Part shown: positions 1,900 to 48,260 of the stretch, piece by piece | Layout of the letters: the number at the start of each line of letters is the position of its first letter | Position numbering within the stretch: position 1 is the first letter of the stretch | Virus record (IMG/VR): IMGVR_UViG_3300025707_000003 | Coordinates: 1-64,000 of that record | Strand: one strand, 5' to 3' | From: a virus | Taxonomy: Duplodnaviria > Caudoviricetes | Length of the DNA: 64,000 bases | Translations under genes and position numbers: made by a program | Notes under the pieces: model-generated | Told to the model about the DNA's origin: nothing | Database searches by the model: none | Seen by the model: only the letters and a program-made list of their open reading frames with translations

Positions 1900-1971
1900 C
1901 ACACCAAGTAGGATTTGAACCTACGACCTGCGGCTTAGAAGGCCGATGCTCTTCCACTGAGCTATTGGTGC
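1900..1971 (-). tRNA. tRNA-Arg(TCT)
   Basis: GCACCAA/TTGGTGT acceptor, TAGCTCAGTGGAAGAGCA D-arm, CT-TCT-AA loop, GTAGG-TTCAAAT-CCTAC T-arm; no encoded CCA. Confidence 0.92.
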
Positions 1972-4579: not shown

Positions 4580-4748
4580 TTTGTTTCTCCTTTCAAGAGT
4601 TGTTCGGGCTACACTAGACGATAGATAAGGGGTTACGCTTTCACTAAGCCCCTTATCTATCAAATACTTACAATACTGTAACCCCTTATCTATATACTTA
4701 ATGTGAGCATGATCGCTCCACTAACCTACTCCCCACTAGGAGAACATC

Positions 4749-4832
4749 ATGGAAGTTATCTTTTTTCTCTCATTACCGATCATCCTTGCCAGCCTGCTCA
4801 GGTTGGCGTGGATGCTCTCTGAACCATATTGA
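4749..4832 (+). CDS. 27-aa hydrophobic peptide
   Basis: AGGAGA RBS after class A promoter at 4678; too short for the ORF track. Confidence 0.4.
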   Translation: MEVIFFLSLPIILASLLRLAWMLSEPY

Positions 4833-4866
4833 AACCCCCCACCTACTCCCAACAAGGAGAACAACT

Positions 4867-5367
4867 ATGAGTTTTACTTTTAAAACCACAAACAAAAATG
4901 CACTAGGATACTACCAACAAGCAACCACAGATCGGATCTTTTCGATCCAAGATCTCGTGGCTCACTGTGTCTCAGAATCAGGATCAGACTTGCAATCTGA
5001 GGGCATGAGTTTAGGTCGAATCGACCTCGCAAAAGGTGATGTGATCTCTCTTGACTTCAGTCTCTATTCAAGTCGGGAGGGTAAAGAAACGCTTGGGACG
5101 AATTTAGGTGGGGACTCGATCTCATCAGGGGTCTGGGGCAATCAATGGGTAGTGAACTTAAACGCTATGACCATGAGTGGTGAAAGGCACTTGGTAAAGC
5201 AGTTTAAGTTCACTCAACCGATGTTGAGCCGATACTCCTGCACCTCCTCAGACGCTAGTGTAAAGCGTAAGCATACTAAGTTGGTTAAAGACCACTTAGA
5301 GCGATGCACAAGTGACATGAGCAGTTTCCTCAAACACTATATCAAAAGGGTTCAGGTTCAGTCTTAA
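4867..5367 (+). CDS. hypothetical protein (MSFTFKTTNK...)
   Basis: AAGGAGA RBS before internal Met of ORF 4786..5367. Confidence 0.7.
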   Translation: MSFTFKTTNKNALGYYQQATTDRIFSIQDLVAHCVSESGSDLQSEGMSLGRIDLAKGDVISLDFSLYSSREGKETLGTNLGGDSISSGVWGNQWVVNLNAMTMSGERHLVKQFKFTQPMLSRYSCTSSDASVKRKHTKLVKDHLERCTSDMSSFLKHYIKRVQVQS

Positions 5368-5404
5368 AACCCCTCGCCAACCACTTCCAACAAGGAGAAG
5401 AAAA

Positions 5405-5728
5405 ATGCTTCTAATCTGTAATCAAAACCCGAACAAGAGATGGCAATGGAACATCTTTCTTGATGGTTGTTTTGTTGGATATATCGACAAACACCAGACC
5501 CACATATCAGACACAACCCGCCTTTATTCAGAGTATACTGTCTTTGGTCTTACGAGTACACACAGGGATAACTCGATCATACTGTCTTCAACCACAATGA
5601 ACACACTCAAGGATGCAAAAGATTGGGTTCGCAAGAACCTTTCGACTAGAGCAGACTTCCTCAAGGCGATTGCTCTCGCTCAATACGAGCAGGTTGAAGA
5701 ATTATTCTTACAGCCTATAAGAACATAA
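5405..5728 (+). CDS. hypothetical protein
   Basis: AAGGAGA RBS. Confidence 0.7.
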   Translation: MLLICNQNPNKRWQWNIFLDGCFVGYIDKHQTHISDTTRLYSEYTVFGLTSTHRDNSIILSSTTMNTLKDAKDWVRKNLSTRADFLKAIALAQYEQVEELFLQPIRT

Positions 5729-16938: not shown

Positions 16939-19452
16939 ATGTCTACAATTACAGCGATACAGAAAACGATTGACGCTCAAAAAGAAGCTAATGCCGTTAA
17001 ACTAACCCCTAACTCTGCGGACACTTCCCTCACAGCAAGTAGAGAAGTGGGTGTACTCATTGAAGGTAGTAATGCTACGGTTCAAAATACATCTGACGCA
17101 GGGGGCGTTGTGATTAAGGGAGGTGTTCCTAATCGAGACTCTATTGATGGCGGTGACATAACCATACTGGGAGGGGATGGTTATAAGGGTGGGAACATAT
17201 TAATTGTTGGTGGGGATAACACAGATAACTCAGCGTCAAGTATCTCAGGAGCGATTGCGATTCAAACAGGAGGTCAAGACCTTACTAGTGATCAGCACAC
17301 AGGTAATATCCTAATCAATACAGGTAATGTGAGTGCAGTTAAGAGTTCGGGGTCTTTAGACATTAAAACAGGGACTCCCCATAACGCTCAAGGTTCTTCA
17401 AGTGGGGGTGTTACAATAGAAACAGGAGGTACTTCAGATATTGCCCATAATGGTAGTTCAGGTAACTTAATAATGAAGACAGGGCAAGGGGGTCTAAATG
17501 GGTCTGGACCTATTGCCTATTCAACAGGGGATACCTCGTCTGGAGCTACAGGGTCAATAACTTTTCTATCGGGATCATCCTCCTCTGGTGTTACAGGGGA
17601 TATTTCTTTTTTTAGTGGGTCAGCAGGGGAAGGGGGAGCGAGTGGAGATATTAGTTTAGTCTCTGGGGTAGTGACTAGAAATGGTGGTGCAATTCCGTAC
17701 AACACAGGTGATGTTACAGTAGCATCAGGAACAGGTGTTGGAGCATGGGCAAACAGTGGTACATTATCTCTTTATACAGGAAACTCAGCGAGGGAAACAG
17801 GTGATGTAAGTCTTTACACGGGCGACTCAAGTGGAGACAATAGTGGTACTATTAATATTTACACAGGGAGTGCAACAGATGGTTTAGGTGATACTTCGGG
17901 TAATATAGATCTGACAACAGGTGATTCGTATTCCCAACCAGGAAGAATAAAGTTCGTCACTGGGGCTTCCACAGGCGGAAGCCAAGGGGGTCATATTCAA
18001 GCAGTTACAGGGAATGTCACTGATGGTAATAACACTCAAGAAGGGGGTGGGATCTGGTACACCACAGGGTCTCACGCAGGTAGTGGAGATAGTGGTCTTT
18101 TCAATATCTCAACAGGGGATCAAACAGGTACAGGTAATTCGGGATATATAGACATACGCACAGGGGATCAAACAGTAGCAGATCTATCAGGAAAGATAGA
18201 CATACACACGGGTGTTACAACTGGTGAAGACAGTGGTGAAATCTTAATCAAAACAGGATTTACAGACGCGGATACTGTTTCAAGTGGTGAAATCACTATC
18301 GCCACAGGTGGTCCAGAAGTCAACGGATTTCCAGTATATGGGACCAATACACAGTTAGCAAATAGTGGGGGTATAACCATTAGAACAGGAAGTACCTATG
18401 ATGTATTTTCGGGGAGCTTAACCCTAACAACAGGCATAACCGAGATAGGCACTAGTGGTTCGGTGTCTTTAAGTTCGGGTCAGTCCGAGGAGGGCAACAG
18501 TGGATCTATGCAATTTTTCTCTTCAAATGCAGGAGGGGACTCTGGGTGGGTTGTAATTAGGTCAGGCTCAAGTACCATTGATGGAAATAGTGGTTCGATA
18601 AGTTTGTATACAGGGAATGCGAATACTGTAGCTTCAAATGAAAGTGGTGCGATTAATATTTCCACAGGTGGAGGGAATTTAACATCAGGGGATGTGTCTA
18701 TTACTTCGGGTGCTCCATTTATTGATACAGGGTCTACAAGTGGAGGTGTTACAATAAAGACAGGGGGTACTGCAAACACAGCTGACGCAGGTCATTCGGG
18801 CAACATTGTTATAGGTTCGGGTCAAGGGGGTATCGATGAATCTGGTTCTGTCAGTATTACTACGGGAGATACCTCGACACAACGGAGTGGTGCTTTGACT
18901 ATAGGATCTGGTACAGCTAGTGCTGATTGGAGTGGTGATGTAAATATTTCCACTGGTGGAGGTACAGGTGGAGGAGATATAAATATCTCCACAGGTTTAG
19001 GGTCAGACGGGCATATTTCCTTAGCTACGGATGGCAACGGGGATATTATCTTAACTGCCGATGATGTGGAGGTGAGTTCAGCTTCGGTCCCCAATTCTGT
19101 GGGCAATGACCAACGACTTTTAACAGTTCAAGCGGATGGTGTTCTTAAATCACTAGGAGTAAAAATAATCCATATCGGTCAGGTTACCGTATCCACAGGG
19201 GCTACTAATATTACAGACTTCACATTAACCGCTCCAGTTAATTCGATGTCTGCAAACACGAAGATTTTTTGGAATCTAGAAACAGACAACACAGCGGGGG
19301 TACACTGGACAACTTACCCTCATTTTGTACCCGCTAATTTTTCTACAGGTCCTTCGCATGACCCAAACATTGCAGTTTTATATGGGACTCTTAATAAGTA
19401 TGTGGTATCAATGGATGTGACGATAAATTATGTCATGTATGAGACATTCTAA
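16939..19452 (+). CDS. Gly/Ser/Thr-rich repetitive fibre or spike protein (837 aa)
   Basis: Dozens of (S)G.I.I.(T/S)G repeats; strong TAAGGAG RBS. Confidence 0.65.
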   Translation: MSTITAIQKTIDAQKEANAVKLTPNSADTSLTASREVGVLIEGSNATVQNTSDAGGVVIKGGVPNRDSIDGGDITILGGDGYKGGNILIVGGDNTDNSASSISGAIAIQTGGQDLTSDQHTGNILINTGNVSAVKSSGSLDIKTGTPHNAQGSSSGGVTIETGGTSDIAHNGSSGNLIMKTGQGGLNGSGPIAYSTGDTSSGATGSITFLSGSSSSGVTGDISFFSGSAGEGGASGDISLVSGVVTRNGGAIPYNTGDVTVASGTGVGAWANSGTLSLYTGNSARETGDVSLYTGDSSGDNSGTINIYTGSATDGLGDTSGNIDLTTGDSYSQPGRIKFVTGASTGGSQGGHIQAVTGNVTDGNNTQEGGGIWYTTGSHAGSGDSGLFNISTGDQTGTGNSGYIDIRTGDQTVADLSGKIDIHTGVTTGEDSGEILIKTGFTDADTVSSGEITIATGGPEVNGFPVYGTNTQLANSGGITIRTGSTYDVFSGSLTLTTGITEIGTSGSVSLSSGQSEEGNSGSMQFFSSNAGGDSGWVVIRSGSSTIDGNSGSISLYTGNANTVASNESGAINISTGGGNLTSGDVSITSGAPFIDTGSTSGGVTIKTGGTANTADAGHSGNIVIGSGQGGIDESGSVSITTGDTSTQRSGALTIGSGTASADWSGDVNISTGGGTGGGDINISTGLGSDGHISLATDGNGDIILTADDVEVSSASVPNSVGNDQRLLTVQADGVLKSLGVKIIHIGQVTVSTGATNITDFTLTAPVNSMSANTKIFWNLETDNTAGVHWTTYPHFVPANFSTGPSHDPNIAVLYGTLNKYVVSMDVTINYVMYETF

Positions 19453-26705: not shown

Positions 26706-27809
26706 ATGTCAACTCATTGTCCAGCTTGTAAGAAAGTAGTAAAGGCAAAGGGTCTACCTTTGCACATTAAGGCTTGCCCCGATTGGGATACCAAGATTGG
26801 AGTTCCCTCGTCCGAGTTCAACTTCGATGAGTATTTCCAAAGGGGTTTGTATGAACCTCAATTGATTGAGAGTGTGGACTACCTGTCTTGTAAGATTTGT
26901 GGGTATCGTAAGAAGCGTATTGCCGACCATGTGAGGAAGGTGCATGGGTATGATGCGAAAGACTATCGTGCTAAGTATAACGCACTCACTTCGATACCTA
27001 AGACAAATGAGAAGCGTAAGGCTACAGTCAAAGAACGCTATGGTGTTGAGAATGTGTTCCAAGATGAGTCTGTAAAAGAGAAGATGAAAGAGACTAATCT
27101 TAAGCGTTATGGTGTAGAACAAATCGCCCATAGTGATGAGGTTAAAGAGAAGCGTAAAGCGACCAACCTAAAGCGTTATGGTGTAGAGAATGGGTTTGCT
27201 TCGGAGATCATCAAGGAACGCATTAAAAAGACGAACCTTGAGCGTTATGGTGTAGAACACCCTAATCAATGTGCCGAGCATAGAGAACGCACTAAAGCAA
27301 CCAATCTTGAGCGTTATGGTACAGAACACTATTTACAAACTGACGAGTTCCAGGAGAAGCGTATTAATACTTGTCTTGAAAGGTATGGACTTCCTTTTGC
27401 TCCAAGTAGTGTGGCGAATAGATCGTCCGACAAACCTAACAAGCTAGAAAGCTACTTTGACTCGATTACACCAGAGAGGTTGGTCTACACAGGAAACTTT
27501 TCTTATTGGTTGAGAGAGAGCAATAGGGCAAGAAATCCCGACTTCATCTATTTGTCGGAGAGTCAGTACGAGAGTTATGTTGCTGGTATTGTTATCTTGA
27601 ATGACTTACGAGTGTATAAGGTGGTGGAGGTCTTTGGAGACTACTGGCATGGGGAATCAAAGACGGGAAAGAGCAATGAGGAGCATGAGGCAGAGGTAGT
27701 AGATTACTATGCTCGTTGTGGTGTGTCTTGCCTTGTGATTTGGGAGGGAGAGATTCGTTCAGACGAGGAGTCTGTGATTGATAGATTTGTGAGTTTCCTT
27801 ACTTCGTAG
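26706..27809 (+). mobile_element. free-standing homing endonuclease-like gene (Zn fingers, ERYGVE repeats, C-terminal PD-(D/E)XK/Vsr-like domain)
   Basis: CPAC/CKIC zinc motifs, five-six K.TNL(K/E)RYGVE repeats, RNPDF...VVEVFGDYWHG. Confidence 0.78.
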
Positions 27810-42763: not shown

Positions 42764-43636
42764 TTAAATCTCTTCAATGACATAGTTAAGTTTAGTTCTA
42801 AGTCGCTTACCACTAGATGCGAGATATTGAAACGACTCCTCAGAAGCACCAAGTTGACGAATAATACTTTTTCGCTCATCTTCATCTAGGTATCCGAACG
42901 CTTCAAGAACTTGCTTCTCACTCCACCCTCTCTCCTCATAAAGATACTCATAAGGGTACTGTTTAAGAGCTTTCTCGATCTCTTCTTCTGCTTCTCCCAT
43001 AAGATCATTGCGGGCAGACTCTGGTAACTCGTTCAACATATTATTATAGTCAAATACCATTACTTCTGCACGATCAGAATAAAGACGATTGATCTCTCCA
43101 TTAACTTCTGGATCCATCCTCGCTTCCCAATAAGCCAGCTCCTCTTCATATGACTCTTTCTTTTCGGTCAAATCTGCCCTCTCAAGGATTTCGTCATCGT
43201 CTAAGTCTTCGATTTGTTCCTCCGCCCATTGAGTAGCCCACATTCCAATATCACCGTAAGGTAGACTCGCAGTGGTTACAATGATGTCTCTTGCCCAAGG
43301 CACTCTTACAACCACTTCTTTAACAGAATGGTTATCGAGCATCTCATCCATGATCTCTTCATTCATCTGTGTCTTAACATCATCATCCTCATAGATGATG
43401 TAATCACTCCAATCAGAAGAAACCAAGATCACATCTTTATGACCTTGAAAGTATTCCCAGACTTGACCGTTTCTTCTCTCTTTAAGATCAGACCTAGTTT
43501 GGGCTTTAGTTTCTCGACTTTCAACTAGAACTTCTAAAGCCCAAGTTATCCATTGAGGTTCTTTCTTAGATTGCTTTTCAAGTTGGGCAATCCTATTCTC
43601 AAGTTTATTAATGATTTCTGATGCTGATTTTCTCAT
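42764..43636 (-). CDS. leader-family protein 3, strongly acidic payload
   Basis: MRKSASEIINKLENRIAQLEKQS; AAATGGAGA RBS. Confidence 0.8.
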   Translation of the reverse strand: MRKSASEIINKLENRIAQLEKQSKKEPQWITWALEVLVESRETKAQTRSDLKERRNGQVWEYFQGHKDVILVSSDWSDYIIYEDDDVKTQMNEEIMDEMLDNHSVKEVVVRVPWARDIIVTTASLPYGDIGMWATQWAEEQIEDLDDDEILERADLTEKKESYEEELAYWEARMDPEVNGEINRLYSDRAEVMVFDYNNMLNELPESARNDLMGEAEEEIEKALKQYPYEYLYEERGWSEKQVLEAFGYLDEDERKSIIRQLGASEESFQYLASSGKRLRTKLNYVIEEI

Positions 43637-43663: not shown

Positions 43664-44071
43664 TTAGTACGCACCCTTGATGCTTTTGATCTCTGATTTG
43701 ACTTCTTCATGTAGGTCATACCATCGATCAGAGATGGAAGCATAAAAGCGATCCTCTCTCATTGAAAATGAAGGCATACTCTCTAATGCTTGCTCCAGCT
43801 CTTGCATCGCTTCAAGAACTTTGACTGCACTCTCTCTTACAGATAATTGACGAGCAGTCTTGTTTCCCTTGTACTCAGGAGTTTTACGATACTCTTTAAC
43901 GAGTCTTTCGTATTCTTCATTTTGAGACTTGGTGAGATTATCATCGTCTTCAAGTTTTTGCAGGTCATCAAGTCTCGACCTGTCTTTTTTAGACATAGTG
44001 TGTGCTGATATTTCAAGTTGTGCGATTCTTGATTCAAGATCCCTGAGTACTTCACTTGCTGATTTTCTCAT
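43664..44071 (-). CDS. leader-family protein 4
   Basis: MRKSASEVLRDLESRIAQLEISA from internal Met of ORF 43664..44200; class B-like promoter at 44121. Confidence 0.8.
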   Translation of the reverse strand: MRKSASEVLRDLESRIAQLEISAHTMSKKDRSRLDDLQKLEDDDNLTKSQNEEYERLVKEYRKTPEYKGNKTARQLSVRESAVKVLEAMQELEQALESMPSFSMREDRFYASISDRWYDLHEEVKSEIKSIKGAY

Positions 44072-44148
44072 AAGAGTCCTCCATTTTTGGCTAGGGTTGC
44101 TGAGATTATATAAGTATAATAATAGATAAACTATCAAAGGATTAGCAT

Positions 44149-45123
44149 ATGATAAAGCTACTATGGAGAACAGATGTCCACATGGGAGATAAAACCCCAC
44201 GCAGACGCACTGGAAACTGGACGGATGATGTGGTCAACAAGCTCAAGTGGATTGGTGATCTCGCTAAGGATAAAGAGATTGACGCTGTACTTGATGGTGG
44301 AGACTTCTTTGATGTCAAATCACCCACCAAGAATAGCCATAGTTTAGTCCGTAAGGCTTGTGACGCACATGAGGGGTATCCTTGCCCTACTTATGGTCTA
44401 GTCGGCAACCACGATGTAAAATATGGCAATATAGACTACCTACCCGAACAACCTCTAGGAGTCCTATTCTCATCGGGTGTCTTTAAGCAGTTTGGCGATG
44501 ATGTAGAAATAAACTTTGAAAAAGATGGGGTCAAAGTTCGTGTAGTCGGTGTGCCTTATCATGGTGTCATTTATGACTTTGATCGGATCAAGAACATAAA
44601 AAAGAAAGACGAGGATTACCTACTAGTCGCTAGCCACCTCCTCGCTCGACAAGGTAAGACTGGATCAATGTTTGAGAATGAGGATATAGTTGGATATGAC
44701 TTCCTTAATGAGAACACAGAAGTAGACGCTTGGTTCTTTGGTCATTGGCACAAAGATCAAGGCATCTCCACGCTCTTAAATGGAGCAAGGGTTGTCAATG
44801 TAGGGTCATTAACAAGAGGTTCTTTACACCTTGATGACTTAGACCGTAGACCTTGTGTGGTAGAGGTTCAAGCCACCAAAGAGTCGCTTAACTTCATCAG
44901 ACACGATGTTCCTGTACGAGATGCCAATGAGGTATTCAAGATCGAGGAAACTGTGCGTGAAAAGGAAGATAAGCAACGAATGATCGACATTGTAGACAAG
45001 ATGAAAGCAGTAGCCACATCGGGTTGGTCTGAACTTACTCTTAAAGAGCGTGTAATGCAGACTATGGGTTCAAATGGAGCTAAGGAAATGGCTATCTCTT
45101 ATCTTGAACAAGTCGAGGATTAA
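44149..45123 (+). CDS. sbcD: SbcD/Mre11-like metallophosphoesterase nuclease
   Basis: TDVH, GGDFFD, GNHD, SH, GHWH, VNVGSLTR. Confidence 0.85.
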   Translation: MIKLLWRTDVHMGDKTPRRRTGNWTDDVVNKLKWIGDLAKDKEIDAVLDGGDFFDVKSPTKNSHSLVRKACDAHEGYPCPTYGLVGNHDVKYGNIDYLPEQPLGVLFSSGVFKQFGDDVEINFEKDGVKVRVVGVPYHGVIYDFDRIKNIKKKDEDYLLVASHLLARQGKTGSMFENEDIVGYDFLNENTEVDAWFFGHWHKDQGISTLLNGARVVNVGSLTRGSLHLDDLDRRPCVVEVQATKESLNFIRHDVPVRDANEVFKIEETVREKEDKQRMIDIVDKMKAVATSGWSELTLKERVMQTMGSNGAKEMAISYLEQVED

Positions 45124-45650
45124 GATTAAAGACTTTTAAGATAATCTAAAATGTCTTCATCTCTTCTTAATCCGTTTGGTTGGCCTTGGTCATGGTAGAT
45201 AATCTCGATTAAGTCGGTTGCGATAAGCACCTGGTCTTTTCTCGGTCTTTCCATAGACATACCAACTACATAACTATGATCAATGTCATCACTAGTTGAG
45301 AAGTGGTTAAAGATTTCGCCTTTTGACATGAAATAAGTTTTCATTCTGCGACCTCCACCATCTTGACCGTACTTATCTTTAAATGGTGCGAAGAGGGTAA
45401 ATTGCCCTTGCCCAAGAGCTTCCCTAGCTGGGTGCTTTCGGCCTGCTTGTCTTTCAAGTCTTGCAATCCTTGACTCAAGATTACGAATAACTTCGGTTGC
45501 TGATCTTCTCATGGTTTTCTCCATTTTGTTTGTGGTTAAAGAGATCACTTATGAGAACCTATAAAAGAACTATTAAAACAAGAAATAGATAAAAGTAGGA
45601 ATAAGGGGTGGGGATGGCTATCTCTTATCTTGAACGAGTCGAGGACTAAG
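45088..45650 (+). repeat. 37-bp direct repeat of the sbcD 3' end (45088-45124 and 45614-45650) flanking leader cassette 5
   Basis: ATGGCTATCTCTTATCTTGAAC[A/G]AGTCGAGGA[T/C]TAAG, 35/37 identical. Confidence 0.9.
45126..45512 (-). CDS. leader-family protein 5
   Basis: MRRSATEVIRNLESRIARLERQA; class B promoter and shared UTR. Confidence 0.8.
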   Translation of the reverse strand: MRRSATEVIRNLESRIARLERQAGRKHPAREALGQGQFTLFAPFKDKYGQDGGGRRMKTYFMSKGEIFNHFSTSDDIDHSYVVGMSMERPRKDQVLIATDLIEIIYHDQGQPNGLRRDEDILDYLKSL

Positions 45651-45653
45651 TTA

Positions 45654-46121
45654 TTAGGCTTTTGTGATGTCATAGTCTGCACGAGCCTTTAGATTGCTCT
45701 TTAGGATGCTCTGTAGTTTATTAGCACAAGAGTTATAACTTTGGCTCTCACATCCAGTAGCAACAAATACTTGATAGAGACAACTCCAACAACCACCTTG
45801 AAGATTGTCTGATCCGTCATCAAGACCCCAACTGATTTGTAGTTGACCCCCCCCTATATCAACATATGCGTATAGGCTTGTTCCTCTCTCAATGTCTCCT
45901 TCCTCGATTCCTTCTTCAAGACTGGATTTAGCAGACTCAATATCACTGTTAACTTCTGCAATAATCTCTGCAAAAGTCATGTCGGTGTTTCGATCTCTTG
46001 GGTGACCTGTGTACCAACCTGTACTGATCTTTAGACCAGAATGTTTGTTGGCAGTACGACCTTCAAGACGAGCAATCCTCATCTGAAGGTTGCGAATAAT
46101 TTCTGATGCTGATCTTTTCAT
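45654..46121 (-). CDS. leader-family protein 6
   Basis: MKRSASEIIRNLQMRIARLEGRTA; class B promoter and shared UTR. Confidence 0.8.
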   Translation of the reverse strand: MKRSASEIIRNLQMRIARLEGRTANKHSGLKISTGWYTGHPRDRNTDMTFAEIIAEVNSDIESAKSSLEEGIEEGDIERGTSLYAYVDIGGGQLQISWGLDDGSDNLQGGCWSCLYQVFVATGCESQSYNSCANKLQSILKSNLKARADYDITKA

Positions 46122-46181
46122 GGTTTTTCTCCATTTTGTTAAGGTTAATGAGATCACTTAAGATCAATTATAAATAAACTA

Positions 46182-48260
46182 TTAAAATCTATACCTCAAC
46201 CTAGAGTACCTAAGACCACTAGACGAGTTTCCTACACAAATCGCTACTGCGTCCTTATCTCCAATCAGCACTGCCTTATCCTTCGCTCTCGTGACAGCGG
46301 TGTAGAGCAAAGAGCGTTGTAAGAGGTTTGAACTATGTTCGGTGGTCATAGGCATAATGATGGTGTCGTACTCAAGACCTTGGCTCTTATGAACAGTCGT
46401 AGCATAAGCGAGTCTCAATAGCTTCCTTACTTGATCAGAAGGGATGTCTACGATTTGATCTTTTACACCTTTGATGAGTACGCTCACGCTTGTTTTATCA
46501 ATCGACCTAATACGACCTATATCACCATTATAAACATTGAGGTCATACTCATTCTTGGTGATCATAACTCGATCACCTACTCGGATTGAATCTTTACCTA
46601 CCCGAATGAAAGCACCTCCTATATCGGGGTTCAAAGCAGATCTAAGCTCTCTGTTAAGATTAGTAACACCCACTTTGCCATGATGAGTAGGACTAACCAC
46701 ATGGAAATCTATTTGATCCATGTGAAGCTCTTTACACCGTCCCACAATTTCATCGAGAATGTCTTGTGAGGTATAACGATCAATGAACTGATAATCTTTA
46801 TTGTGTTGTGGCACTTCACCTGCATGGATCTTGTGAGCGGCAATTGTCACCCCACTCCCCTCTCCTTGCCTAAAGATTTCTGTAAGGTGTTCTCTCGGTA
46901 CTGCGTTCGACTCAATAAGTTCCGAAAGAACAAACCCTGCACCAACAGGTGGAAGCTGTGCTATATCACCTACCATGATGACTCGACACTTGGGTGAGAT
47001 GCCTTTCATCACACGCCACATGAGGTGTAAGTCAATCATAGAGGATTCGTCTATAATGACAACTGACTCTGGTCGAGGATTCTGAGGATTATGTCTCCAT
47101 AGTTCTCGACTTGGGTCATTGCTATTGCCAATACCTTTAACTCCACTTTCTTCATCTTTCTTAACCCCTTCATAATCAGACTTGTCCTTCTTATCCTCTG
47201 AGGGCAATCCTGCACCGAACGCTCTATGGACTGTGAAAGCGTCCATATTGGTTAATGCACTAGCTCGTTTAGCGGCTATTCCTGTGGGGGCGATGAGTAA
47301 GATACTTTCTTTACGATCACGCAAGATTTTACAGAGCGTATTAAGGATAGTCGTCTTACCTGTTCCTGGTAATCCTGTCACGATTGAAAAAGGCTCTATA
47401 AGACCCTGTTGGATTGCTTTGAGTTGTGTATTGGTCAATGGGTAGCGTGAATATGCTTTAATGTCATCAATACTTATTGATTGAAGCATACTATTCACTC
47501 GGAGAGGAGATTTAATTTCTTCGGCAACAGCTACCTCCATTTTATGATAAGAAGGCAAATAAAGGGCAATAGAGGAGTCTTGTGATATCTTATCTACCAC
47601 AATGCGAGTCGGCTTCGCCTCTTTCATCGACTTGATGACTTGACCTATCTCTTTCGGGTTCGTCAAGCCTGTGAGGATAGCAGTATCTTTGAATACCGTA
47701 TTTGTGTCTAAATAACAATGACCTTGATACACACCTTGAAGCATAGACCAAAAGATAGAGGCTTCAACTCGACCTTCATTTTCTGGGTCAAAGTCCTTTT
47801 TAAGAAGCGTCTTAGCAATTTCATCAGCACCTTGAAAAGAGACACCTTTATAAACCAACGACCAAGGGTTTTTAGCAATAGAACTCGGAGATATTTGAAC
47901 ATCATTCCAAATAGAGTTTATGATGTTCAAAGGCACTCCTGCTTCAGACAGACTTGAGATAACCTCGATGGACTCTTGCATAAGAGGGTCAGACCAATCT
48001 GCCCAACTGTAGAGAGCCGACCCTTTAAGATACTTAGGGTTAATCGGATTACGAACTATATCAAGGTTCTTCTTCCCATTACGCTTGTCGAGGACTTCCT
48101 TACCTTGAAAGGTAAATACTTGACCTTTTGAAACAGGGCCTGCAATCTTACCTTTGACCACGATAGGCTTTGTATCGGCCTCAGAAGCTACGATACACCT
48201 TAGAATATAATAAGGTGGGTTGGCAAAAATCTGCCCCAACACTTTGGCAACATAAAACAC
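46182..48260 (-). CDS. recD2: RecD2-like SF1 helicase
   Basis: TGLPGTGKTT, APTGIAA, IDESSM, GDIAQLPPVG, YATTVHKSQGLEY, LYTAVTRAK. Confidence 0.9.
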   Translation of the reverse strand: MFYVAKVLGQIFANPPYYILRCIVASEADTKPIVVKGKIAGPVSKGQVFTFQGKEVLDKRNGKKNLDIVRNPINPKYLKGSALYSWADWSDPLMQESIEVISSLSEAGVPLNIINSIWNDVQISPSSIAKNPWSLVYKGVSFQGADEIAKTLLKKDFDPENEGRVEASIFWSMLQGVYQGHCYLDTNTVFKDTAILTGLTNPKEIGQVIKSMKEAKPTRIVVDKISQDSSIALYLPSYHKMEVAVAEEIKSPLRVNSMLQSISIDDIKAYSRYPLTNTQLKAIQQGLIEPFSIVTGLPGTGKTTILNTLCKILRDRKESILLIAPTGIAAKRASALTNMDAFTVHRAFGAGLPSEDKKDKSDYEGVKKDEESGVKGIGNSNDPSRELWRHNPQNPRPESVVIIDESSMIDLHLMWRVMKGISPKCRVIMVGDIAQLPPVGAGFVLSELIESNAVPREHLTEIFRQGEGSGVTIAAHKIHAGEVPQHNKDYQFIDRYTSQDILDEIVGRCKELHMDQIDFHVVSPTHHGKVGVTNLNRELRSALNPDIGGAFIRVGKDSIRVGDRVMITKNEYDLNVYNGDIGRIRSIDKTSVSVLIKGVKDQIVDIPSDQVRKLLRLAYATTVHKSQGLEYDTIIMPMTTEHSSNLLQRSLLYTAVTRAKDKAVLIGDKDAVAICVGNSSSGLRYSRLRYRF

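What the first reader, a model, noticed from the sequence alone, without database searches (positions are those of the whole stretch)
45088..45656. Cassette 5 is bracketed by a 37-bp duplication of the sbcD 3' end, a visible insertion scar
Seen: the last 11 codons and stop of sbcD (45088-45124) recur at 45614-45650 with two substitutions. Each copy is followed within 1-3 bp by the stop codon of a leader-family gene on the opposite strand. The unit between the copies is one complete cassette (promoter, UTR, leader, payload). Inference: cassettes are gained or lost here by recombination using the sbcD terminus as a homology or attachment site, so the locus is an expandable array.
Basis: partly seen in the sequence, partly recalled or inferred. 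Interest (0 to 1): 0.75.

Follow-up and report, generated by a model that had tools for sequence, protein, structure and literature searches.

The report
Recombination scar beside a phage cassette
In an uncultured giant marine phage, a 37-base copy of the end of a nuclease gene sits between two small swappable genes; it marks where two related phage genomes crossed over out of register, not a dedicated docking site, and shows how this fast-changing gene row grows.

Summary
Window 45088-45124 (last 11 codons, stop and one base of an SbcD/Mre11-like gene) recurs at 45614-45650 with 35/37 identity; 0 such matches occur in 100 shuffles. One complete leader-family cassette lies between the copies.

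It is not an assembly artefact. Independent assemblies and contigs from marine runs of 2012 and 2020 bridge both junctions.

Relatives with sbcD at least 92% identical carry about ten different right-hand neighbours. Both "parental" junctions exist separately:
- sbcD|cas5 in L036 and L038.
- sbcD|cas6 in L053, which is the predicted empty site.

The second copy carries the rare variant GAC-TAA-GTT.TTAGGC, found elsewhere only at L053's live sbcD|cas6 junction.

A second, independent duplication of the same gene end brackets a different gene in L039. There the new joint lies in the purA ribosome-binding site.

Tail lengths vary (25, 37, 41 and 57 nt for sbcD; 48 nt for purA), and no recombinase or attC-like site is present.

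Best reading: a scar of unequal, short-homology crossover between co-infecting relatives. The locus is an expandable array, but the sbcD end is not an attachment site.

The scan noted the same kind of scar elsewhere in this genome (e1-5368251). The closest known system is PeSL shuffling in T4-type phages.

The parts
44149..45123 (+). SbcD/Mre11-like nuclease gene (324 aa), the conserved left anchor of the variable interval
   Evidence: Pfam Metallophos 1.3e-11; PHROG SbcD-like 1.8e-10; 92-97% aa identity in L001, L002 and L039-L046
45088..45124 (+). Copy 1: the live sbcD tail (codons 314-324, stop, plus 1 nt)
45126..45512 (-). cas5: leader-family gene, 128 aa, payload of unknown function
   Evidence: ORF and leader motif; no Pfam, PHROG or Atlas match; homologues of 75-81% lie next to sbcD in L036 and L038
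45513..45577 (-). cas5 RBS, conserved UTR box and late-type promoter motif (AATAGTTCTTTTAT at 45561-45574)
   Evidence: alignment of cassette upstream regions; the motif occurs 7 times in the window against 0.17 expected, also upstream of the 1582-aa fibre-like gene
45578..45613 (.). 36-nt spacer. Its first ~20 nt resemble the sequence upstream of the cas5 promoter in L038. It ends in AAGGGGTGGGG directly before the ATG of copy 2. The novel joint lies at its right end.
   Evidence: no other source found
45614..45650 (+). Copy 2: dead remnant of an sbcD tail, formerly the live end that abutted cas6
   Evidence: 35/37 identical to copy 1; the variant GAC-TAA followed by GTT.TTAGGC is shared only with the live sbcD|cas6 junction of L053
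45654..46121 (-). cas6: leader-family gene, 155 aa, payload of unknown function and unrelated to cas5 beyond residue 39
46122..46187 (-). cas6 RBS, UTR box and promoter motif (46170-46183), overlapping the recD stop codon
   Evidence: (D1-D3)
46182..48260 (-). RecD2-like helicase gene, the conserved right anchor of the interval
   Evidence: Pfam AAA_30, UvrD_C_2, SH3_13, HHH_RecD2; 88-96% aa identity in L001, L002, L039 and L046
42764..44071 (-). cas3 (42764-43636) and cas4 (43664-44071): leader-family genes on the other side of sbcD, also variable between relatives

Best explanation
The window comes from an uncultured marine jumbo phage. The interval between its sbcD-like and recD-like genes is a hyperplastic region filled with small late genes. 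Each of these has its own promoter, UTR box and about 22-residue N-terminal leader, with unrelated payloads. The 37-bp repeat is the scar of one unequal (out-of-register) crossover between two related genomes that carried different cassettes against the sbcD stop codon. One parent had sbcD|cas5|promoter|spacer. The other had sbcD|cas6|promoter|recD. The join ran from the intergenic spacer right of the cas5 promoter to codon 314 of the other parent's sbcD, probably guided by only a few bases of similarity (an SD-like stretch plus ATG). The product keeps one intact sbcD, gains a cassette, and carries the other parent's last 11 sbcD codons as a dead remnant stuck to the 3' end of cas6. The right edge of the repeat is simply where the two parents stop being alike (the sbcD stop). 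The left edge is the crossover point. Shown: the repeat, both parental junctions in relatives, the lineage-specific variants, and an independent second case. Inferred: co-infection, the single-step nature of the event, and the use of microhomology in the window's own joint.
For: (1) Both parental junctions exist on their own. L036 and L038 have sbcD followed by cas5 homologues; the 63 nt after the stop are 60/63 identical between the window and L036. L053 has a live sbcD followed directly by a cas6 homologue, and 49/63 nt after copy 2 match L053 against 27/63 for L036.
(2) Among 17 live tails tabulated, the C at position 33 followed by TAA-GTT.TTAGGC occurs only in L053 and in the window's remnant.
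(3) sbcD|cas6-type adjacency is also seen in more distant relatives (L002, L046), so it predates the composite.
(4) L039 is an independent replicate. A 41-nt sbcD tail recurs 739 bp downstream at 95% identity and brackets an unrelated gene. Its live junction equals L045's sbcD|ORF404-like junction. Its remnant junction equals the live sbcD|cas150 junction of L043, L044 and L047. Its novel joint lies in the purA ribosome-binding site that follows the ORF404 promoter in L045, L002 and L046.
(5) Tail lengths differ between lineages: 25 nt in L052, 37 nt here, 41 nt in L039, 57 nt in L048-L050. A purA tail of 48 nt is retained in the same way in L043 and L051.
(6) cas5 and cas6 are alike only in residues 1-39.
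(7) The structure is present in independent assemblies and runs.
Against: The cas5 parent's sequence to the right of the spacer was not found, so the window's own joint is unresolved; the last ~13 nt (GGGGTGGGG) have no identified source. No parent at near-identity was found: L053 is 84-90% and L036 85% identical to the window, so the event cannot be dated and may have involved more than one step. The same product would arise from integration of a circular intermediate. L053 could in principle be a loop-out derivative rather than an ancestor.
Confidence: 0.74

Rival explanations
1. Campbell-type insertion of a small circle. A mini-circle carrying sbcD tail + cas5 + promoter + spacer was formed in a donor. 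It then integrated by a single homologous crossover within the 37-bp tail of a recipient that had sbcD|cas6, which duplicated the tail.
For: The product topology (a direct repeat flanking one unit) is exactly what a single crossover with a circle gives. Mini-circles formed between repeated regulatory cassettes are documented for T4-type phages (PMC2839356).
Against: It needs the same illegitimate joint (spacer to codon 314) to close the circle, plus a second event in only 37 bp of homology. In L039 the P404/purA-RBS region is duplicated as well as the sbcD tail, interleaved, as expected from one unequal crossover between collinear genomes. No circle junction could be looked for in raw reads (contigs only).
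Confidence: 0.12
2. Tandem duplication of the unit [sbcD tail + cassette + promoter] within one genome, followed by divergence or replacement of one payload.
For: The two units have similar lengths (526 and 568 bp), the same orientation, and a shared promoter/leader of 126 nt at 76% identity (D2).
Against: The payloads are unrelated beyond residue 39. The promoter/leader copies are only 76-80% alike while the tails are 95% alike. The spacer has no counterpart at the end of unit 2, which abuts recD. Each unit's junction exists separately in other lineages.
Confidence: 0.06
3. Dedicated site-specific system: the sbcD terminus is an attachment site recognised by a recombinase, as attI/attC sites are in integrons.
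For: Two independent remnants (the window and L039) begin within about 4 nt of the same ATG.
Against: Other remnants begin elsewhere (25 and 57 nt), and a purA tail behaves the same way. With four sbcD tails in a ~60-nt zone, one coincidence within +/-4 nt is expected by chance about half the time (my estimate). No integrase or recombinase domain was found among the nine gene products scanned. Each cassette carries its own promoter. There is no conserved 3' hairpin.
Confidence: 0.03
4. Assembly artefact or chimera of two strains.
For: Metagenome assemblers can mis-join at repeats. Contigs break at the repeat in the Logan data.
Against: L034 (21 differences in 3430 bp) and L051 come from other assemblies and carry the same structure. 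Single contigs with 0-2 differences span spacer, remnant and cas6 in X8 and X10, and span sbcD end plus cas5 in X10.
Confidence: 0.01

Closest known systems
PeSL (promoter-early stem-loop) modular shuffling and mini-circles in T4-type phages (Arbiol et al. 2010, PMC2839356; Comeau et al. 2014, PMC4122927)
   Same: Small ORFan genes in hyperplastic regions between conserved genes. Each is preceded by a repeated regulatory module. Close relatives differ by insertion, deletion and replacement of whole gene units bounded by these modules. Crossovers were mapped around the SD and -10 region.
   Different: Here the repeated module is a late-type promoter shared with a fibre-like structural gene, plus a UTR box and about 22 coding residues. 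No sigma-70-like promoter or terminator stem-loop was found. The 3' side of each unit has no repeat, so rearrangements leave tails of the neighbouring gene; my term search of that paper found no mention of remnants. Circles were not tested.
Internal-protein (Ip) loci of T-even phages with the capsid-targeting sequence (Repoila et al. 1994, from my own knowledge; reviewed in PMC3012670)
   Same: Polymorphic rows of small genes that share a short N-terminal leader and differ in cargo between close relatives.
   Different: The leader sequence and the phage group differ. This report concerns the recombination scar, not the tag.
Integron gene-cassette arrays
   Same: A row of small, swappable single-gene units at a fixed place next to a conserved gene. 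The array can expand and contract.
   Different: No integrase, attI or attC. Every unit has its own promoter. Junctions are variable and lie inside neighbouring genes.
Unequal crossing-over / short-homology illegitimate recombination at gene borders, the classical source of phage mosaicism (general knowledge; lambdoid and mycobacteriophage comparisons)
   Same: A novel joint with little or no homology, located at a gene boundary, and kept because it disrupts nothing essential.
   Different: Here both parental junctions, the recombinant and an independent replicate can all be read from environmental sequences. The scars travel with the cassettes to other loci (L048).

Membership tests
Scar of unequal (non-allelic) crossover | Both parental junctions exist separately in related genomes | tested here: met
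   sbcD|cas5 in L036 and L038; sbcD|cas6 in L053
Scar of unequal (non-allelic) crossover | Each repeat copy carries the variants of the lineage of its adjacent unit | tested here: met
   The remnant's GAC-TAA-GTT.TTAGGC is found only in L053's live junction. L039's remnant (CAA..TAG-CGTAGTTTGCT) matches L043, L044 and L047.
Scar of unequal (non-allelic) crossover | One edge of the repeat is where the parents diverge; the other edge is a novel joint absent from both parents | tested here: met
   The right edge is the sbcD stop. The left edge joins the spacer to codon 314, and in L039 it joins the purA RBS to about codon 313.
Scar of unequal (non-allelic) crossover | Sequence of the joint explained by the two parental sequences | tested here: inconclusive
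   Resolved for L039. For the window, the cas5 parent's right flank was not found.
PeSL-type modular shuffling | Repeated regulatory cassette in front of each ORFan in a hyperplastic region | tested here: met
   Promoter, UTR box, RBS and leader shared by cas1, cas2, cas5, cas6 and by relatives
PeSL-type modular shuffling | Early sigma-70-like promoter combined with a terminator stem-loop | tested here: not met
   0 sigma-70-like sites, and one terminator-like site unrelated to the cassettes, in 44000-46400. The motif is shared with a fibre-like late gene.
PeSL-type modular shuffling | Excised mini-circles | not testable with these tools
   Only contigs of public runs could be laid
Integron cassette array | Adjacent tyrosine-recombinase integrase with attI | tested here: not met
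   No recombinase domain in the nine gene products scanned: seven genes between 42.7 and 49 kb plus the leader genes at 590 and 22750
Integron cassette array | attC-like structured site at the 3' end of every cassette; promoterless cassettes | tested here: not met
   The 3' ends of cas5 and cas6 are unrelated and fold no better than shuffles on the live tail. Each cassette has its own promoter. Tail lengths vary.
Transposon target-site duplication | Short identical duplication flanking an element with terminal inverted repeats and a transposase | tested here: not met
   The repeat is 37 bp with 2 differences. The unit holds one 128-aa ORF of no known family. No inverted repeat pair (I1-I24) has both arms at the ends of the 45125-45613 unit.
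T4-type capsid-targeting-sequence cargo genes | Leader directs the protein into the prohead and is cut by the prohead protease | not tested
   Outside this finding. Earlier notes e1-5368290 and e1-5368300 propose it, unproven.

The most novel reading that the evidence does not exclude
The retained gene tails are not neutral debris. The last 25-60 nt of the convergent neighbour (sbcD or purA) would form the functional 3' end of the cassette transcript (end formation or stability). The true mobile unit would then run from promoter to neighbour-tail. Alternatively, the SD-like-plus-ATG patch in the sbcD tail would be a recurrent recombination hot spot, acting as a primitive recombinase-free capture site.
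Probability: 0.12. Interest if true: 0.6.

Novelty: new variant of a known kind. Interest (0 to 1): 0.4.

Why it matters
Events that add genes to phage genomes are rarely caught with both parents, the product and an independent replicate visible. Here environmental sequences show step by step how a row of promoter-plus-leader cassettes in a group of giant marine phages grows, shrinks and seeds other loci. They show this happens by ordinary, imprecise recombination rather than by a dedicated integrase system. The scars (sbcD and purA tails) can be used as markers to trace cassette movement between loci and lineages. This bears on how the leader-tagged cargo repertoire, whatever its function, diversifies so quickly.

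Tried and rejected
- DNA search of the interval against GenBank phages found no match, and no whole genome is held for the window.
- No relative of cas5 was found in IMG/VR.
- The origin of the 36-nt spacer was sought by exact pattern in IMG/VR, with 3 mismatches in the two closest jumbo-phage records, in the window, and by short BLAST against all fetched loci. Only the window's own strain variants matched.
- I looked for a precise excision joint (45124>45651) in contigs of four runs and none was listed. Because contigs drop rare variants, this says nothing about absence.
- The joints that were listed (45514>46125, 45565>46095, 46121>45537) lie in the repeated leader/promoter modules, were laid at 88% likeness, and are most likely other cassettes, so they were not used.
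- Contig depth differences between sbcD and the cassettes were not used; the tool warns against it.
- The first attempt at look-up of sequencing runs failed.
- Pfam, PHROGs and the ESM Atlas gave nothing for the payloads.
- The terminator scan and the folds of the live tail gave nothing. The remnant region folds somewhat better than shuffles (z -2.2 and -3.0) through pairing with the spacer, which I leave unexplained.
- I considered that the remnant is a second sbcD copy with its body deleted (promoter relic + RBS + ATG fused to the tail). The sbcD upstream region does not match the spacer beyond a 10-nt promoter-core word, so this two-step variant stays possible but unsupported.
- I considered that the 11-codon mini-ORF with an SD-like stretch in front is expressed. 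There is no evidence for it.
- I considered that the window and L039 sharing the ATG edge means a hot spot. Not significant, given the other tail lengths.
Full report
WHAT IS THERE

The window has 42% G+C. It encodes very long fibre-like proteins, an SbcD/Mre11-like nuclease, a RecD2-like helicase and an SNF2 helicase. No cellular genome is held for it. Its sbcD gene finds relatives only in uncultured viral contigs of 105-381 kb, so it is part of an uncultured marine jumbo phage. Runs from 13 marine studies hold the stretch.

Six genes in the window begin with the same leader of about 22 residues (consensus M-R/K-R/K-S-A-S-E-I-I-x-x-L-E-x-R-I-A-R/Q-L-E). Their start codons are at 590(+), 22750(-), 43636(-), 44071(-), 45512(-) and 46121(-). 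Most also share an upstream module: the motif AATAGTTYWTTTAT, a UTR box and an RBS. The motif occurs 7 times in the window against 0.17 expected by chance. One copy lies in front of the 1582-aa fibre-like gene, so it is a late-type promoter.

THE OBSERVATION

The last 11 codons, the stop and one further base of sbcD (45088-45124) recur at 45614-45650 with two substitutions. None of 100 shuffles gives a second match.

Between the copies lie three things:
- the cas5 ORF at 45126-45512;
- its RBS, UTR box and promoter at 45513-45577;
- a 36-nt spacer at 45578-45613.

cas6 (45654-46121) follows copy 2 after three bases. Its promoter overlaps the stop codon of recD. cas5 and cas6 are alike only in residues 1-39. 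Their payloads match no Pfam, PHROG or Atlas family.

NOT AN ARTEFACT

- L034 is 99.4% identical over 3430 bp and comes from a different ENA assembly.
- L051 is 97.9% identical and has a different right flank.
- Both carry the same spacer, remnant and cas6. L035 is 100% identical and may be the source sample.
- In Logan contigs of run X8 (2012), one contig covers 45501-46091 without a difference.
- In run X10 (2020), one contig covers 45045-45515 and another covers 45547-46076.

WHAT RELATIVES SHOW

An IMG/VR scan with the sbcD protein, a metagenome scan with the sbcD-tail pattern and contig look-ups for the cas5 and cas6 homologues gave a series of genomes with sbcD 92-97% identical to the window's. 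The right-hand neighbour of sbcD differs among them:

| Locus | What follows sbcD |
|---|---|
| window, L034, L035 | cas5, remnant, cas6, recD |
| L036, L038 | cas5 homologue |
| L053 | cas6 homologue directly |
| L002 | distant cas6 homologue, ORF404, purA, recD |
| L046 | 245-aa leader gene, and more |
| L001, L042 | orphan promoter, ORF285, purA, recD |
| L045 | ORF404-like gene, purA |
| L039 | ORF232, second sbcD tail, cas150, purA, cas144, recD |
| L043, L044 | cas150 |
| L040 | 242-aa leader gene |
| L041 | 764-aa plus-strand gene |

The interval is therefore hyperplastic.

THE TWO PARENTS

The sequence after copy 1 is 60/63 identical to the sequence after the live sbcD stop in L036, but only 25/63 identical to that in L053. 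The sequence after copy 2 is 49/63 identical to L053 and 27/63 to L036.

In a table of all tails, the C at position 33 (GAC instead of GAT, GAA or others), followed by TAA and GTT.TTAGGC, occurs only in the window's remnant (with its strain variants L034 and L051) and in the live sbcD|cas6 junction of L053. The remnant plus cas6 is thus a former live sbcD|cas6 junction. sbcD plus cas5 is the junction of another lineage. The window is a composite of the two.

The repeat ends at the sbcD stop because that is where the two parents stop being alike. It starts where the crossover took place.

AN INDEPENDENT REPLICATE

In L039 the sbcD tail (41 nt by BLAST, 95% identity) recurs 739 bp downstream and brackets a different gene, ORF232, a relative of ORF404.
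- Its live junction (TAG-TATTTGTCTTT) is that of L045.
- Its remnant junction (TAG-CGTAGTTTGCT) is the live sbcD|cas150 junction of L043, L044 and L047. The remnant plus cas150 is 90.8% identical to L044.
- Left of the remnant lie the ORF404-type promoter and then CAATGGAGGAA-ATG. In L045, L002 and L046 the same promoter is followed by (C/T)AATGGAGA(T/G)A(A/C)(-/A)(G/A)A-ATG, which is the ribosome-binding site and start codon of purA.
- sbcD itself reads AATGGAGCTAAGGAA-ATG at codons 307-314, a look-alike of that site.

So the L039 joint is a crossover between the purA start region of one parent and the look-alike in the sbcD tail of the other. It also leaves two copies of the P404/purA-RBS region, interleaved with the two sbcD tails, as one unequal crossover between collinear genomes predicts.

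THE WINDOW'S OWN JOINT

The spacer's first ~20 nt resemble what lies upstream of the cas5 promoter in L038. That part therefore came with cas5. Its end (AATAAGGGGTGGGG) precedes the ATG of codon 314. It has no identified source and shares at most TAAGG with sbcD. The joint is therefore not resolved, and I infer a short-homology event by analogy with L039.

NO FIXED SITE

Retained tails differ in length between lineages:
- cas6 homologues carry sbcD tails of 25 nt in L052, 37 nt here, and 57 nt in L048-L050.
- In L048-L050 the unit sits at a different locus, right of the SNF2 helicase gene and next to the ribonucleotide reductase gene, and is preceded by another leader gene's promoter.
- A 48-nt tail of purA is stuck to the 3' end of another convergent cassette in L043 and L051.
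- L047 holds an sbcD with an in-frame internal deletion.

Variable breakpoints, a second gene behaving the same way, the absence of any recombinase domain in the neighbouring genes, and the absence of a conserved 3' structure together argue against an attachment site.

With four sbcD tails in a zone of about 60 nt, one pair of edges coinciding within 4 nt (the window and L039) is not significant by my estimate.

LOSS AND SWAPPING

In L001 and L042 the sbcD stop is followed by GATTAAAGA and then the UTR box and promoter of a cassette, with no gene. The same GATTAAAGA follows the stop in the window, where it holds the cas5 stop codon. TTAAAGA also occurs in the cas5 UTR box. This fits deletion of a cas5-like gene between two 7-nt repeats, but that is an inference.

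L051 and L043 carry different cassettes (cas6 and cas150) between the same flanks. The flanks are the sbcD tail on the left, and promoter plus spacer plus purA tail plus a further cassette on the right. This fits replacement by homologous recombination in the flanks.

The 37-bp repeat could now mediate loss of cas5, but no such product was seen (contigs only).

COMPARISON WITH WHAT IS KNOWN

The closest described system is PeSL-mediated modular shuffling in T4-type phages. There, repeated promoter/SD/terminator cassettes flank ORFans in hyperplastic regions, close relatives differ by whole units, and recombination between cassettes yields mini-circles (PMC2839356; PMC4122927).

The present array works like that but is not a member:
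- the module is a late-type promoter with a UTR box and a coding leader;
- no terminator stem-loop is present;
- the unit has homology only on its 5' side, which is why rearrangements leave neighbour-gene tails.

It also recalls the polymorphic internal-protein loci of T-even phages, but the leader's function was not tested here. It is not an integron and not a transposon (see the membership rows).

The same scan had already described gene-end scars next to a homing-endonuclease gene, and a recombining cassette array, elsewhere in this genome (e1-5368251 and e1-5368282). My results at the sbcD locus agree with those readings and add resolved parents and a replicate.

VERDICT

It is a well-documented example of a known evolutionary process in a new kind of cassette array, and of moderate interest.

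Noticed in passing
L039:3740-3780 and L039:4479-4519: A second, independent duplication of the sbcD tail (41 nt, 95%) in metagenome contig MDTA01225135.1. It brackets an ORF404-like gene instead of cas5, and the joint lies in the purA ribosome-binding site.
   Followed up: yes
L001:6973-7023 (same in L042): An orphan cassette promoter and UTR box fused directly to the sbcD stop with no gene. The shared GATTAAAGA suggests deletion of a cas5-like gene between two TTAAAGA words.
   Followed up: partly
L047:12433-12929: sbcD with an in-frame internal deletion (window 44251-44856 missing, GTGG at both break points). It is flanked by leader genes and lies right of the SNF2 helicase gene instead of left of recD. 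Whether that phage has another intact sbcD is unknown.
   Followed up: partly
L048 (reverse complement 4790-5540), also L049 and L050: In a 360-kb scaffold, an 80% cas6 homologue with a 57-nt sbcD tail sits at another locus, between another leader gene's promoter and the ribonucleotide reductase large-subunit gene. Cassettes move between loci and take the tail along.
   Followed up: partly
L043:1000-1050 and L051 (reverse complement 740-800): A 48-nt remnant of the purA 3' end (..STGADREDTIFV stop) without the purA body. It is attached to the 3' end of a convergent leader cassette, with the same module in two different arrays.
   Followed up: partly
L046:322-1059: A 245-aa leader gene whose C-terminal part matches cas6 from residue 7 onward, so it contains part of a second leader. 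It looks like an in-frame fusion of two cassettes.
   Followed up: no
window 224, 4383, 4621, 4678(-), 13250, 13393, 13678, 27809(-), 32156(-), 50526, 51235(-): A second conserved 16-nt motif, ATARATAAGGGGTTAC, has 11 copies against 0.09 expected. It shares the ATAAATAA core with the reverse complement of the late promoter motif. The two copies at 4621 and 4678 form an inverted pair. The spacer at 45597-45609 holds a degenerate copy. Function unknown.
   Followed up: partly
window 45578-45634: The spacer (CAAGAAATAGATAA) is partly complementary to the remnant (ATCTCTTATCTTG). The folds score z -2.2 (minus strand) and -3.0 (plus strand). Meaning unknown.
   Followed up: partly
L001:3015-4499: An IMP dehydrogenase/GMP reductase-like gene that appears to be interrupted by an intein-like insert (..GSGCFVAGTPILT ... 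VVHNSAC..), judged from the translation only.
   Followed up: no
window 1901-1964 and 2359-2422; 27017-27347; 18112-18207: Two tRNA-like repeats 458 nt apart; five 69-nt in-frame repeats; and a 48-nt tandem pair. All were seen in the repeat scan only.
   Followed up: no
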